From positions 1 to 11,556 of IMG/VR virus record IMGVR_UViG_2713897055_000008: a stretch of DNA of 11,556 nucleotides; one strand, given 5' to 3'. Position 1 is the stretch's first letter. Every line of letters begins with the position of its first letter. The notes beneath the pieces were generated by a model, which was given only the letters and a program-made list of their open reading frames with translations, made no database searches and was not told the DNA's origin. Of this stretch, positions 8,223 to 11,556 are shown one piece after another. A program made the translations under genes and the position numbers. The DNA comes from a virus. Taxonomy: Duplodnaviria > Heunggongvirae > Uroviricota > Caudoviricetes.

Positions 8223-8966
8223 ATGACACAGACTGAATCAGCGATTCTGGCGCATGCCCGGCGGTGTGCGCCAGCGGAGTCGTGCGGCTTCGTGATAAGC
8301 ACCCCGGAGGGGGAGCGGTACCAGCCCTGCGTGAATATCTCCGCAGAGCCGGAGGCGTATTTTCGTATTGCGCCGGAGGACTGGCTGCAGGCACAGATGC
8401 AGGGGGAGATTGTGGCGCTGGTCCACAGTCATCCCGGTGGTCTGCCCTGGCTGAGCGAGGCGGACCGGCGGCTGCAGATAAAGAGTGCCCTGCCCTGGTG
8501 GCTGGTCTGTCGGGGTGAAATTCACCGGTTCCGCTGTGTGCCGCACCTGACCGGACGGCGCTTTGAACACGGTGTGACGGACTGTTACACCCTGTTCCGG
8601 GATGCATACCATCTGGCGGGGATAACGCTGCCGGATTTTGTGCGTGAGGATGACTGGTGGCGCAACGGCCAGAACCTGTACCTGGACAACCTGGCGGACA
8701 ATGGATTTTACCGGGTGTCTCCGTCCTGTGCACAGGCAGGCGATATCCTGCTGTGCTGCTTTGGCGCATCGGTGCCGAATCATGCCGCCATTTACTGTGG
8801 CAACGGTGAACTGCTTCACCATATACCTGAACAACTGAGTAAACGGGAGAGGTATTCTGAAAAATGGCAACGACGAACGCATTCTGTCTGGCGTCACCGC
8901 CACTGGTCCACATCTGCCTTCACGGGGATTTACAACGATTTGGTCGCCGCATCAGTCTGTATGTGA
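8223..8966 (+). CDS. K: Tail tip assembly protein K (JAMM/MPN plus NlpC/P60 domains)
   Basis: ATG 8223 (MTQTESAILAHARR...); JAMM motif HSHPGGLPWLSEAD at 8424-8465; NlpC/P60 catalytic Cys (GVTDCYTLF) at 8583-8585 with downstream His. The frame stays open to TGA 8964-8966, overlapping I by 103 nt. Confidence 0.85.
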   Translation: MTQTESAILAHARRCAPAESCGFVISTPEGERYQPCVNISAEPEAYFRIAPEDWLQAQMQGEIVALVHSHPGGLPWLSEADRRLQIKSALPWWLVCRGEIHRFRCVPHLTGRRFEHGVTDCYTLFRDAYHLAGITLPDFVREDDWWRNGQNLYLDNLADNGFYRVSPSCAQAGDILLCCFGASVPNHAAIYCGNGELLHHIPEQLSKRERYSEKWQRRTHSVWRHRHWSTSAFTGIYNDLVAASVCM

Positions 8967-9508
8967 ACACGGCAGCGGAGGCCATCCGTGCCCTGTCGCA
9001 GCAGGTGCCGGGATTCCGCTGTCAGATGAACGAAGGCTGGTACCAGATACGTATTGCCGGTGAGGATACCGCGCCGGACCAGATATCGCCCCGACTGCAT
9101 GAGCCACTGAACCCGGGGGATGTCATTCATCTGGTTCCCCGGGCAGAAGGTGCCAAAAGTGGCGGAGTGTTTCAGGCCGTGCTTGGCGTTGCGCTGGTTG
9201 CGGCAGCTATCTGGATGCCGGGTATCGGTATTGCAGCCAGCAACATCATGTTTTCCATGGGCTCTGCAATGGCACTGGGTGGTGTGGCCCAGATGCTGGC
9301 CCCGAAGGCAAAGACGCCGGAGTACAAAAGCACGGATAACGGCAGACAGAACACGTATTTTTCGTCACTGGACAACATGATTGCTCAGGGGAATCCGGTG
9401 CCGGTGCCTTACGGTGAAATGCTGGTTGGTTCACGACGGATATCCCAGGACATCAGCACCCGTGATGAGGGCGGTGACGGGAAAGTGGTGGTTATCGGGC
9501 GGGGATGA
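8864..9508 (+). CDS. I: Tail tip assembly protein I
   Basis: ATG 8864 is the first start after in-frame stops; 214 aa; N-terminus (...ICLHGDLQRFGRRI...AEAIRAL...) and C-terminal region (KSGGVFQ...NTYFSSLDNM...VVVIGRG) resemble lambda gpI as recalled. Confidence 0.88.
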   Translation: MATTNAFCLASPPLVHICLHGDLQRFGRRISLYVNTAAEAIRALSQQVPGFRCQMNEGWYQIRIAGEDTAPDQISPRLHEPLNPGDVIHLVPRAEGAKSGGVFQAVLGVALVAAAIWMPGIGIAASNIMFSMGSAMALGGVAQMLAPKAKTPEYKSTDNGRQNTYFSSLDNMIAQGNPVPVPYGEMLVGSRRISQDISTRDEGGDGKVVVIGRG

Positions 9509-9512
9509 AAAT

Positions 9513-9547
9513 AAAAAAAAATCCCGCAGTGCTCTGTAGCTGCGGGA
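9513..9547 (-). terminator. Intrinsic-terminator-like element, minus-strand orientation (unit 1)
   Basis: Stem TCCCGCAG (9522-9529) / CTGCGGGA (9540-9547), 10-nt loop; on the minus strand it is followed by nine T (9513-9521). Confidence 0.55.
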
Positions 9548-9644
9548 AGAGATACGAAGATTAACTTTAAGGAATTTTTCATTATTCTGGCAGATGAACT
9601 GTAACGCAGCGTGATTATGAGCACTACAGTCAGTGTGCGGAAAT

Positions 9645-9671
9645 GTGAATAAACTCAGAATTTTTATTCAC
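9645..9671. repeat. Perfect 9-bp inverted repeat GTGAATAAA-N9-TTTATTCAC (unit 1)
   Basis: Read directly; degenerate in units 2 and 4. Confidence 0.5.
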
Positions 9672-9734
9672 GGGAAGGGAGGGGCCGGATATCGGTGGCA
9701 GAGGACAGAAGGCATCATGCCGGGTTCAGGGGAT

Positions 9735-9767
9735 AAAAAAAATCCCGCAGTACTCCGTGCTGCGGGA
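9735..9767 (-). terminator. Intrinsic-terminator-like element, minus-strand orientation (unit 2)
   Basis: Stem 9743-9750 / 9760-9767 (same 8-bp sequence as unit 1), 9-nt loop; eight T on the minus strand (9735-9742). Confidence 0.55.
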
Positions 9768-9958
9768 AGAGAACGATGTTGACTAACCTGTTGGCGTTTT
9801 ATTTTTATTGACCCGAAGAAACTGTAACCTGCCGGAATGCACTCTGCCACGGAGAATGACGGAAAATGTGAAGAAAATCAGAGTTTTTATTTATCCCGTA
9901 CATTCGTCTCTGGCGACAGAGTGGCGTCAGTAATGTCCGTGATACTGAGGGGGGAATT

Positions 9959-9997
9959 AAAAAATCTCCCGTAATACACCTGGATATTGACGGGAGA
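9959..9997 (-). terminator. Terminator-like hairpin, minus-strand orientation (unit 3, variant stem)
   Basis: Stem TCTCCCGT (9965-9972) / ACGGGAGA (9990-9997) with an inner AATA/TATT extension; six T on the minus strand (9959-9964). Different stem sequence from the other units but same fold. Confidence 0.4.
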
Positions 9998-10099
9998 AAC
10001 GAATAGTCACCTTAAGGAGTAGTTTTGATTATTGCCTGTAATCAGCGGGCGAATTGTAACGTATGGTGATTATGAGTGCCACAGGTAATTTGCAGAAAT

Positions 10100-10126
10100 G
10101 TGAATAAATTCAGAATTTTTATTCAC
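10100..10126. repeat. Perfect 9-bp inverted repeat GTGAATAAA-N9-TTTATTCAC (unit 3)
   Basis: Read directly; identical arms and spacing to the unit-1 copy. Confidence 0.5.
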
Positions 10127-10188
10127 AGGAAGGGGCTGCGGGATATCGGTGGCAGAGGACAGAAAATATCAGGCCGGGTTTAAGGGAT

Positions 10189-10222
10189 AAAAAAATCCCG
10201 CAGAGTCAGCGGAGCTGCGGGA
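10189..10222 (-). terminator. Intrinsic-terminator-like element, minus-strand orientation (unit 4)
   Basis: Stem 10196-10203 / 10215-10222 (TCCCGCAG/CTGCGGGA), 11-nt loop; seven T on the minus strand (10189-10195). Confidence 0.55.
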
Positions 10223-10395
10223 GAGAACGATGAAGATTAACGTTATGGAGTTATTTTTCAGGCATCAAAAAAGTAACGCAGCGTCATTATTGCGGCTACA
10301 GGCAATTTGCAGAAATGTGAAGAATTTCAGAAATTTTATTCCGTCATGACACAGGCACCTCCGGGGTGCCTGTTGTTTTTGGGCATAAACAGATT

Positions 10396-10422
10396 CAGAC
10401 ATCAGACATCAGACATCAGACA
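10396..10422 (+). repeat. Heptanucleotide microsatellite (CAGACAT) x ~3.9 just upstream of the J ribosome-binding site
   Basis: Read directly: cagacat cagacat cagacat cagaca, followed by GGAGAGGGGG and the GTG start at 10438. Confidence 0.8.
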
Positions 10423-10437
10423 GGAGAGGGGGACAGA

Positions 10438-11556
10438 GTGGGTAAAGGGGGCGGCAAGGGGCACACACCGCGTGAGGCGAAGGACAATCTCAAATCCACG
10501 CAGATGATGAGCGTGATTGATGCCATTGGTGAGGGACCGGTGGAAGGCCCGGTGAAGGGACTGCAGAGTATTCTGGTGAACAAAACCCCGCTGACGGACA
10601 CGGACGGTAATCCCGTGATACACGGTGTGACCGCCGTCTGGCGTGCCGGGGAGCAGGAGCAGACACCGCCGGAAGGCTTTGAGTCCTCCGGGGCAGAAAC
10701 CGCACTGGGCGTGGAGGTGTCGAAGGCAAAGCCGGTGACGCGCACCATCACGTCAGCGAACATTGACCGTCTGCGGGTCACCTTCGGGGTGCAGTCACTG
10801 GTGGAGACCACCTCAAAGGGTGACCGTAATCCCTCTTCTGTCCGCCTGCTGATTCAGCTTGAGCGTAACGGTAACTGGGTGACGGAGAAGGATGTCACCA
10901 TTAACGGCAAGACCACCTCGCAGTACCTGACGTCGGTGATTCTGAATAATCTCCCTGAGCGCCCCTTTAACATCCGGATGGTCAGGGAGACGGCGGACAG
11001 CACCACGGACCAGCTGCAGAACAGAACGCTGTGGTCGTCATACACCGAAATCATCGATGTGAAACAGTGCTACCCGAACACGGCCATTGTGGGGCTGCAG
11101 GTGGATGCGGAGCAGTTCGGTGGCCAGCAGCTGACGGTGAACTACCATATCCGTGGTCGCATCATTCAGGTGCCGTCAAACTATGACCCGGAAAAACGCA
11201 CCTACAGCGGTATCTGGGACGGCAGCCTGAAACCGGCATACAGCAATAACCCGGCCTGGTGCCTGTGGGACATGCTGACCCACCCGCGCTACGGGATGGG
11301 AAAACGCCTGGGGGCCGCGGATGTGGACAAGTGGGCACTGTATGCCATCGGGCAGTACTGCGACCAGACGGTCCCGGATGGTTTCGGGGGCACAGAGCCG
11401 CGGATGACCTTTAATGCGTACCTGTCACAGCAGCGTAAGGTGTGGGATGTCCTGGGGGATTTCTGCTCGGCGATGCGCTGTATGCCGGTATGGAACGGTC
11501 AGACGCTGACGTTCGTTCAGGACCGTCCGTCGGATGTGGTGTGGCCGTACACGAAC
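10438..11556 (+). CDS. J: Tail tip / host specificity protein J, N-terminal 373 codons (continues past window end)
   Basis: GTG 10438 preceded by GGAGAGGGGG. Translation (M)GKGGGKGHTPREAKDNLKSTQMMSVIDAIGEGPVEGPV...WCLWDMLTHPRYGMGKRLG... is near-identical to the lambda J N-terminus as recalled. Absent from the ORF track because there is no stop inside the window. Confidence 0.93.
   Translation, partial: MGKGGGKGHTPREAKDNLKSTQMMSVIDAIGEGPVEGPVKGLQSILVNKTPLTDTDGNPVIHGVTAVWRAGEQEQTPPEGFESSGAETALGVEVSKAKPVTRTITSANIDRLRVTFGVQSLVETTSKGDRNPSSVRLLIQLERNGNWVTEKDVTINGKTTSQYLTSVILNNLPERPFNIRMVRETADSTTDQLQNRTLWSSYTEIIDVKQCYPNTAIVGLQVDAEQFGGQQLTVNYHIRGRIIQVPSNYDPEKRTYSGIWDGSLKPAYSNNPAWCLWDMLTHPRYGMGKRLGAADVDKWALYAIGQYCDQTVPDGFGGTEPRMTFNAYLSQQRKVWDVLGDFCSAMRCMPVWNGQTLTFVQDRPSDVVWPYTN

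What the first reader, a model, noticed from the sequence alone, without database searches (positions are those of the whole stretch)
9645..9671. Perfect 9-bp inverted repeat GTGAATAAA-N9-TTTATTCAC conserved in units 1 and 3
The same perfect palindrome with identical 9-nt spacing occurs at 9645-9671 and 10100-10126, and is degenerate in units 2 and 4. It could be a dimeric DNA-binding-protein site or an AU-rich RNA hairpin inside the putative small RNA. It contains TGTGA and TCAC half-sites, but the spacing is far too long for a CRP site.
Basis: seen in the sequence. Interest (0 to 1): 0.4.

Follow-up and report, generated by a model that had tools for sequence, protein, structure and literature searches.

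The report
CRP-like box of prophage PasB sRNA promoters
The palindrome is real, but its conserved part is a probable CRP (catabolite regulator) binding site just upstream of the promoter of a known prophage small RNA (PasB/EcOnc22), which is present here as four tandem gene copies; it is not an RNA hairpin.

Summary
Observation confirmed: GTGAATAAA-N9-TTTATTCAC is perfect at 9645-9671 and 10100-10126 and degenerate in the other two units. Units 1 and 3 are copies from one 455-bp duplication, so this is one event, not two.

The region is the gap between lambdoid tail genes I and J. Each ~225-bp unit is a minus-strand gene for an ~80-nt Hfq-dependent sRNA already published as PasB (EPEC) and EcOnc22-24 (EHEC).

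The palindrome lies upstream of the sRNA 5' end (about -54 to -80), so it is not inside the sRNA.

Across 62-66 distinct homologous units the 9-bp arms do not covary: 69.7% of cells pair, against 69.2% in shuffles. The outer pair forms in 4 of 26 motif variants.

What is nearly invariant is AAATGTGA-N6-TCAGA, formed by the left arm plus the loop. This is 9 of 10 core positions of the CRP consensus, and these four sites are the best CRP-like sites in the window. A TAnnnT -10 hexamer sits at a fixed 48.5 bp from it, which puts the site at about -60.5 (Class I geometry).

CRP binding is inferred, not shown. Modest interest.

The parts
9645..9671 (.). Perfect 9-N9-9 palindrome, unit 1 (the finding)
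   Evidence: It could fold (-7.1 kcal/mol as RNA), but it lies upstream of the sRNA 5' end.
10100..10126 (.). Perfect palindrome, unit 3 (paralogue of unit 1)
9641..9662 (-). CRP-like 22-mer of unit 1 (TGTGA 9644-9648, N6, TCAGA 9655-9659; centre 9651.5)
   Evidence: 15.0-17.0 bits; half-sites conserved
9864..9885 (-). CRP-like 22-mer of unit 2
   Evidence: 16.2-16.6 bits
10096..10117 (-). CRP-like 22-mer of unit 3
   Evidence: 15.3-17.4 bits
10313..10334 (-). CRP-like 22-mer of unit 4
   Evidence: 15.0-16.7 bits
9598..9603 (-). Candidate -10 hexamer TACAGT of unit 1. Equivalents: 9821-9826 TACAGT, 10053-10058 TACAAT, 10270-10275 TACTTT.
   Evidence: A TAnnnT hexamer sits 48.5 bp from the CRP-like centre in 58 of 62 variants. 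T, A and final T are invariant. It predicts the published PasB 5' end.
9614..9619 (-). Alternative upstream -10 (CATAAT). Equivalents: 10069-10074 CATAAT, 10286-10291 AATAAT. It reads TATAAT in most homologues.
   Evidence: It would put the CRP-like centre at -44.5 and give an RNA about 15 nt longer.
9513..9591 (-). Predicted PasB-like sRNA 1 (~79 nt), ending in an intrinsic terminator (stem 9523-9546, U-run 9513-9521)
9735..9814 (-). Predicted PasB-like sRNA 2 (~80 nt)
9959..10046 (-). Predicted PasB-like sRNA 3 (~88 nt; different terminator stem)
10189..10263 (-). Predicted sRNA 4 (~75 nt), 74/75 identical to the Sakai Sp15 EcOnc22 locus
10351..10380 (+). Plus-strand intrinsic terminator just before J. 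Lambda-type I-J gaps carry an analogous hairpin.
8864..9508 (+). Tail assembly gene I (left flank)
10438..11556 (+). 5' part of tail tip/host specificity gene J (right flank)

Best explanation
The 930-bp gap between tail genes I and J holds four tandem, diverged copies of a gene for a small Hfq-dependent RNA. It is transcribed on the minus strand, antisense to the tail operon, and is already known as PasB (EPEC) and EcOnc22/23/24 (EHEC).

Each copy reads, on the sRNA strand: A/T tract, TCTGA-N6-TCACA, about 40 bp, a TAnnnT -10 hexamer, a ~75-88-nt RNA, then a GC hairpin and U-run abutting the preceding unit or the stop codon of I.

Its left arm and loop are a near-consensus CRP-type site, AAATGTGA-N6-TCAGA. 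Its right arm is a conserved T-tract (TTTAT) plus three lineage-specific bases (CAC) that happen to complete the dyad in units 1 and 3.

The most likely mechanism is that cAMP-CRP binds this box, centred about 60.5 bp upstream of the start, and activates the sRNA promoter in Class I fashion, as at lac P1. That would tie the sRNA(s) to glucose exhaustion.

Shown here: the anatomy, the identity with PasB/EcOnc22, the conservation pattern and the lack of covariation. Inferred: CRP binding, activation and the exact start site.
For: (1) Identity of the sRNA.
- The Tree 2014 Table S2 Hfq-CRAC peaks EcOnc22/23/24 all fall in I-J gaps of Sakai Sp15/Sp14/Sp11, on the strand opposite to I and J.
- Those coordinates were corrected for a +128 to +146 shift between genome versions, calibrated on AgvB and STnc100.
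- PasB of E2348/69 is 83 nt, minus strand, 1466343->1466261. It lies between 'tail assembly protein' and gpJ, and its Northern probe is the reverse complement of the unit's terminator.
- Unit 4's predicted RNA is 74/75 identical to the Sakai locus.

(2) The box.
- The only four TGTGA-N6-TCACA matches with at most 1 mismatch in the 11.5-kb window are the four units, against 0.38 expected.
- On a weight matrix they are the top-scoring 22-mers of the window at 15-17.4 bits. Recalled genuine sites score a median of about 11 bits when left out, and the background mean is -15.

(3) Conservation.
- In 60 full-length distinct units this block is the best conserved part of the whole unit.
- In 26 distinct motif variants AATGTGA, TCA and TTTT.T are invariant, while four of the six spacer positions vary freely.

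(4) Geometry.
- A TAnnnT hexamer lies 48.5 bp from the centre in 58 of 62 variants.
- With the published PasB 5' end the centre sits at -59.5 to -60.5.

(5) Physiology (circumstantial).
- PasB is higher in overnight LB than in exponential DMEM. Spot 42, which is CRP-repressed (my own knowledge), behaves the opposite way in the same data.
Against: - No binding or genetic data exist. None of the papers searched mentions a PasB promoter or CRP.
- The second half-site is TCAGA in nearly all variants and never drifts to the consensus TCACA. That could mean another constraint or another protein.
- The centre is about 1 bp off the canonical -61.5.
- The 5' end comes from RNA-seq coverage and Northern size, not from 5'-triphosphate mapping.
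- A second, near-consensus promoter (TTCACA-16-TATAAT in about half of the variants) lies 16 bp upstream. Relative to it the box sits at -44.5, a poor position for activation.
- The growth-condition contrast is confounded by growth phase and oxygen.
- My weight matrix was built from CRP sites recalled from memory, not taken from a database.
Confidence: 0.6

Rival explanations
1. The conserved block is a promoter-upstream element, but not for CRP. It could be an UP-element-like A/T tract for the RNA polymerase alpha subunit, or a site for another host or phage regulator that recognises TGTGA...TCAGA.
For: The block is A/T-rich, and conservation extends 5 nt beyond the 22-mer (TTTAT). TCAGA is invariant rather than TCACA. 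In many variants a strong promoter, TTCACA-16-TATAAT, lies immediately downstream.
Against: The left half is an 8/8 match to AAATGTGA. Conserved half-sites around a variable 6-bp spacer is a dyad-site signature, not an A-tract signature. The PWM score equals or exceeds those of genuine sites.
Confidence: 0.22
2. The full 27-bp palindrome (9-bp arms, 9-bp spacer) is itself the binding site of a dimeric protein specific to the unit 1/3 lineage.
For: It is perfect in both diverged copies, which differ only by a loop base. An 8/9 version exists in another single-unit lineage (L067 and L034).
Against: The arms are disrupted in most homologues: 5 of 64 have 9/9 and the mode is 4-6/9. The outer G-C pair is present in 4 of 26 variants. 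The arm centres are 18 bp apart, so they lie on different helix faces (inference). The perfect form is confined to one array lineage.
Confidence: 0.05
3. The palindrome acts as an RNA hairpin. It could do so in the plus-strand late I-J transcript, in a longer minus-strand precursor of the sRNA, or as part of a plus-strand Hfq-binding module ending at the terminator before J.
For: It folds at -7 to -9 kcal/mol with z of about -3. In single-unit loci the block is followed within about 12 nt by a plus-strand terminator.
Against: There is no covariation: paired cells are 69.7% against 69.2% in shuffles, and the register slid by -2 does as well. Units 1-3 keep the block without any plus-strand terminator. 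Hfq-CRAC and RIL-seq report only the antisense sRNA. The palindrome lies upstream of the mapped 5' end.
Confidence: 0.06
4. The palindrome has no function of its own. It arose when three flanking bases (CAC) happened to extend the partial self-complementarity of an A/T-rich promoter region, and it was then copied once by the 455-bp duplication.
For. This is fully compatible with, and is part of, the best explanation.
Against: None specific. It does not explain why the inner block is so conserved, which the CRP-box reading does.
Confidence: 0.85

Closest known systems
PasB (Pearl Mizrahi et al. 2021, PMC8550237; Zhu, Shabalina & Storz 2026 preprint) = EcOnc22/23/24 (Tree et al. 2014, PMC4104026)
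   Same: Same locus type: the I-J gap of lambdoid prophages, antisense to the tail genes. Same terminator sequence as the probe. About 75-88 nt. Hfq-dependent according to those papers. Unit 4 is 99% identical to the Sakai copy.
   Different: Here there are four tandem copies with 57-74% identical RNAs and different single-stranded bodies. The preprint reports a minimum distance of 28 kb between pasB copies, so tandem arrays are not described there. No promoter or regulator has been described.
Class I CRP-dependent promoters (lac P1, CRP site centred at -61.5)
   Same: A 22-bp dyad with a TGTGA-N6-TCAnA core, centred about six helical turns upstream of the start. The -35 is weak. An overlapping upstream promoter recalls lac P2.
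   Different: The centre is at about -60.5 (start not precisely mapped). The second half-site is fixed as TCAGA. No experimental evidence of binding exists.
CRP-controlled core sRNAs (CyaR and McaS activated, Spot 42 repressed; from my own knowledge)
   Same: Hfq-binding sRNAs whose transcription reports cAMP-CRP status.
   Different: Those are core-genome genes. This one is prophage cargo and multicopy.
Tandem or multicopy sRNA families (OmrA/B, PrrF1/2, Qrr1-5)
   Same: Adjacent paralogous sRNA genes share promoter architecture and terminator but have diverged bodies.
   Different: This array lies inside a phage structural operon. It was probably built by recombination between I-J gaps of different prophages, since remnants of the 3' end of I precede units 2 and 4.
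AgvB/AsxR anti-sRNAs and HnrS (other EHEC prophage sRNAs)
   Same: Prophage 'moron' sRNAs that bind Hfq.
   Different: Different loci (PR' moron site, other late-gene positions) and different sequences. There is no Rfam match here.

Membership tests
CRP (cAMP receptor protein) binding site | 22-bp dyad with core TGTGA-N6-TCACA and A/T flanks | tested here: met
   9/10 core positions and an 8/8 left half (AAATGTGA) in all four units. These are the top PWM scores of the window at 15-17.4 bits (matrix built from recalled sites).
CRP (cAMP receptor protein) binding site | Half-sites conserved and spacer free to vary among homologues | tested here: met
   AATGTGA and TCA are invariant in 26 distinct variants, while spacer columns vary. 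TGTGA is present in 62 of 64 units and TCAGA in 57 of 64 (some of the exceptions are anchoring errors).
CRP (cAMP receptor protein) binding site | Binding by CRP-cAMP, and crp/cya dependence of the promoter | not testable with these tools
   Only circumstantial expression data are available: higher in LB overnight than in DMEM.
Class I CRP-dependent promoter | Site centred near -61.5 (or -71.5, -82.5, -92.5) from the transcription start | tested here: inconclusive
   The centre is 48.5 bp from a conserved TAnnnT hexamer, which puts it at -60.5, and at -59.5 to -60.5 from the published PasB 5' end. The start has not been mapped as a primary end, and an alternative upstream -10 would give -44.5.
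PasB / EcOnc22-24 sRNA gene | Located between tail genes I and J, on the opposite strand | tested here: met
PasB / EcOnc22-24 sRNA gene | Sequence match to the published RNA or probe | tested here: met
   The reverse complement of the probe is present in the E2348/69 unit and in the family consensus. Unit 4 is 74/75 identical to the Sakai locus, and units 1-3 are 57-74%.
PasB / EcOnc22-24 sRNA gene | Intrinsic terminator with U-tail (Hfq module) | tested here: met
   All four predicted RNAs end in a GC hairpin plus 6-9 U. Hfq dependence is taken from the literature.
Conserved RNA hairpin | Base pairs maintained, with compensatory changes, among homologues | tested here: not met
   69.7% of cells pair against 69.2% in shuffles. 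One pair shows changes on both sides (3 cells), no more than the shuffled expectation, and the terminal pair forms in 4 of 26 variants.
Rfam sRNA families (AgvB, AsxR, STnc100, Esr41 and others) | Covariance-model match | tested here: not met
   No relevant hit at E<=1 in 9300-10600. The same tool finds AgvB and STnc100 in control loci.

The most novel reading that the evidence does not exclude
The window carries a battery of four tandem PasB paralogues with diverged target-pairing bodies. Each has its own CRP box, so one catabolite signal would switch on four different prophage regulators at once. Being fully complementary to the I-J stretch of the late transcript, they might also modulate expression of the tail-tip gene J in cis during lytic growth.
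Probability: 0.2. Interest if true: 0.55.

Novelty: new member of a known kind. Interest (0 to 1): 0.3.

Why it matters
PasB/EcOnc22 is one of the most widespread prophage sRNAs of pathogenic E. coli: 1,158 hits in the 2026 survey, and 782 of 5,426 complete genomes. Neither its regulation nor its function is known.

A conserved CRP-type box at a fixed distance from its -10 gives a concrete, cheap-to-test hypothesis for when it is made.

The 4-copy array is present in 67 complete E. coli genomes. It shows that this family also expands in tandem with diverged bodies, which copy-number surveys based on one query sequence would miss.

For the scan itself, the lesson is that the eye-catching palindrome is not the functional unit.

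Tried and rejected
- **Rfam scan of the gap:** nothing relevant.
- **AgvB/AsxR:** these sit at the PR' moron site, not the I-J gap.
- **PasA, PasC and PasD:** these lie near the Q and holin genes.
- **HnrS (EcOnc10-12):** a different multicopy prophage sRNA.
- **Taking Tree's coordinates at face value:** this put the CRAC peak on the plus-strand terminator region. The cause was a +128 to +146 offset between Sakai genome versions, calibrated with AgvB1 and STnc100. The exact offset remains uncertain.
- **Small-ORF reading of the AAGGAG-like motif on the plus strand:** not conserved in frame (sequence inspection).
- **Sigma-54, lambda CII (TTGC-N6-TTGC), IHF and FNR consensus matches around the box:** none convincing (inspection).
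- **Consensus promoter scan:** only one weak hit, no better than shuffles.
- **Published TSS tables (Sy et al. 2020):** no supplement is held.
- **More distant lambdoid I-J junctions (Citrobacter, Edwardsiella, Pantoea, lambda-type):** these have no PasB unit, only a ~60-nt gap with a plus-strand hairpin. They gave no deeper phylogenetic test.
- **Table S2 of the EPEC paper:** it turned out to compare the hfq deletion mutant with wild type, not growth conditions.

Full report
**1. The observation**

GTGAATAAA-N9-TTTATTCAC occurs without mismatch at 9645-9671 and 10100-10126. There is a 3-mismatch copy at 9868-9894, and 0.01 matches are expected by chance. Unit 4 has a more degenerate copy at about 10317-10343.

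The two perfect copies are not independent. Repeat analysis shows a 455-bp duplication that makes units 1+2 and 3+4 paralogous blocks of 83-88% identity.

**2. Context**

The window is a lambdoid, Stx-phage-like tail module. Gene I ends at 9508 and gene J starts at 10438, both on the plus strand.

The 930-bp gap holds four repeat units of about 220-250 bp. On the plus strand each unit begins with an A-run followed by a GC hairpin. Read on the minus strand, that is an intrinsic terminator. One plus-strand terminator (10351-10380) precedes J.

Most related phages carry a single unit in a ~240-bp gap, for example VT1-Sakai. The unit occurs in 782 of 5,426 complete E. coli genomes, with a median of 3 and up to 9 places per genome. 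The full 4-unit arrangement occurs in 67 genomes.

Lambda-type I-J junctions have only a ~60-nt gap with a plus-strand hairpin. The unit is therefore inserted cargo.

**3. What the unit encodes**

Rfam has no match. Two experimental papers do.

- **Tree et al. 2014, Table S2.** It lists Hfq-crosslinking peaks EcOnc22 (Sp15; Northern ~85 nt; destabilised without Hfq), EcOnc23 (Sp14) and EcOnc24 (Sp11). In the current Sakai record all three fall in I-J gaps, on the strand opposite to I and J.
- **Coordinate offset.** The table uses an older genome version. Locating AgvB1 and STnc100 with Rfam shows an offset of about +128 to +146. After correction the peak covers the body and terminator of the minus-strand RNA.
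- **Pearl Mizrahi et al. 2021, Table S6.** It defines PasB in EPEC E2348/69 as an 83-nt minus-strand RNA, 1466343->1466261. That interval lies between 'tail assembly protein' and gpJ. The Northern probe is the reverse complement of the unit's terminator.
- **Match to this window.** Unit 4's predicted RNA is 74/75 identical to the Sakai locus. Units 1-3 are 57-74% identical to it, to PasB and to each other.
- **Structure.** All four fold as an unstructured A/U-rich body plus terminator hairpin and U-tail.
[quoted passage not shown] It reports no copies closer than 28 kb, so tandem arrays seem undescribed.

**4. Where the palindrome sits**

In E2348/69 the PasB 5' end is at L138 position 444, and the motif centre is at 503.5. 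By homology the unit 1 palindrome spans about -54 to -80 from the predicted start near 9591. It is promoter-upstream DNA, not part of the mature sRNA.

**5. Is the palindrome conserved?**

I harvested I-J gaps through the J protein from IMG/VR and GTDB genomes. A profile search then extracted 98 units, of which 66 are distinct.

- Only 5 of 64 distinct units have 9/9 complementary positions. Most have 4-6/9.
- On 26 distinct motif variants, 69.7% of cells pair, against 69.2% in shuffles.
- The register slid by -2 does as well (70.9%).
- The terminal G-C pair forms in 4 of 26 variants, and pair 12-28 forms in 8 of 26.
- The left-arm bases that vary (AGATA, AGAGT, AGAAT, ATAAA) face an almost constant TTTAT.
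- The perfect form is confined to the array lineage: 12 IMG/VR stretches, against more than 120 for the core.

**6. What is conserved**

The best conserved block of the whole unit is AATAAAA.TTCTGA-N6-TCACATTT on the sRNA strand.

On the plus strand it reads AAATGTGA-N6-TCAGA. AATGTGA and TCA are invariant, and the spacer varies. This matches 9 of 10 core positions of the CRP consensus TGTGA-N6-TCACA, with a perfect AAATGTGA half.

- The four units are the only matches with at most 1 mismatch in the window, against 0.38 expected.
- With a weight matrix built from 16 classical CRP sites that I recalled from memory, they are the eight top-scoring 22-mers of the window (four sites, each on both strands) at 15-17.4 bits.
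- The recalled sites themselves score about 11 bits (median) when left out. The best site in shuffled windows averages 11.2 bits.

**7. Geometry**

A TAnnnT hexamer lies exactly 48.5 bp from the motif centre in 58 of 62 variants. Its T, A and final T are invariant.

That puts the centre at -60.5. The same hexamer predicts a start at the published PasB 5' end. Class I CRP promoters have the site near -61.5 (established knowledge, lac P1).

A second -10 lies 16 bp further upstream. It reads TATAAT in 23 variants, AATAAT in 17 and CATAAT in 5, and 32 variants have a TTCACA -35. Relative to that promoter the box would sit at -44.5, and the RNA would be about 98 nt rather than 83 nt. I cannot exclude that this is the primary start followed by processing.

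**8. Physiology**

PasB is more abundant in overnight static LB than in exponential DMEM. Spot 42, which CRP represses, is about 5-fold higher in DMEM. This fits CRP activation, but growth phase and oxygen differ as well.

No paper I could search mentions a PasB promoter or CRP.

**9. Verdict**

The palindrome is real but incidental. Its inner two-thirds are a conserved, probably CRP-type, activator site of PasB-family sRNA promoters. Its outer three bases are lineage-specific.

My confidence that it is promoter-upstream DNA rather than a hairpin or a 27-bp operator is about 0.9. My confidence that the protein is CRP is about 0.6.

The sRNA family is already known. The CRP box and the 4-gene tandem array with diverged bodies are small new points.

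Noticed in passing
window 10395-10422: Four perfect tandem copies of TCAGACA lie just upstream of the J start codon. The VT1-Sakai homologue has two fewer copies, so this is a small variable-number repeat in the J leader.
   Followed up: partly
window 10351-10380; L097, L100, L125, L133 about 1440-1500: A plus-strand intrinsic terminator sits immediately before J. Lambda-type I-J gaps (~60 nt) consist of an analogous hairpin (AACCGCCTCCGGGCGGTTTT). A terminator inside the late operon therefore seems to be a general feature, and the PasB unit is inserted between the I stop codon and that hairpin.
   Followed up: partly
window 9692-9734 and 10146-10188: The ~40 nt before the terminators of units 2 and 4 are closely similar to each other, and the stretch before unit 4's terminator is a degenerate copy (78%, family D8) of the 3' end of gene I. 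This suggests the array arose by recombination between I-J gaps rather than by simple slippage.
   Followed up: partly
window 9513-10263 (four predicted sRNAs): The single-stranded bodies differ between the four paralogues. Units 3 and 4 carry a CUCC/CUCCUU anti-Shine-Dalgarno-like stretch, and unit 1 a weaker UUCCUU, while unit 2 has none. They may have different targets.
   Followed up: no
window 8802-8823: Another CRP-like 22-mer (TATGGTGAAGCAGTTCACCGTT, 14.0 bits) lies inside coding DNA upstream of gene I.
   Followed up: no
L108 787-1500 (Citrobacter meridianamericanus): The I-J gap is 714 nt and carries unrelated cargo, possibly a gene on the opposite strand. The I-J junction seems to be a recurrent insertion site.
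   Followed up: no
L087, L091, L092, L094-L096, L101, L106, L109, L112, L115, L120, L121 and others: Lambda-like or Stx-phage-like J genes appear in assemblies labelled Streptomyces, Neobacillus, Paenibacillus, Bradyrhizobium, Pseudomonas and others. Several of the contig titles give about 1x coverage. This is almost certainly lambda or E. coli DNA contamination of those assemblies.
   Followed up: no
NC_002695.2 versus Table S2 of PMC4104026: Coordinates in the 2014 EcOnc table are offset by about +128 to +146 from the current RefSeq Sakai record, at least between 1.94 and 3.49 Mb. Anyone mapping those sRNAs onto the current record will misplace them.
   Followed up: yes
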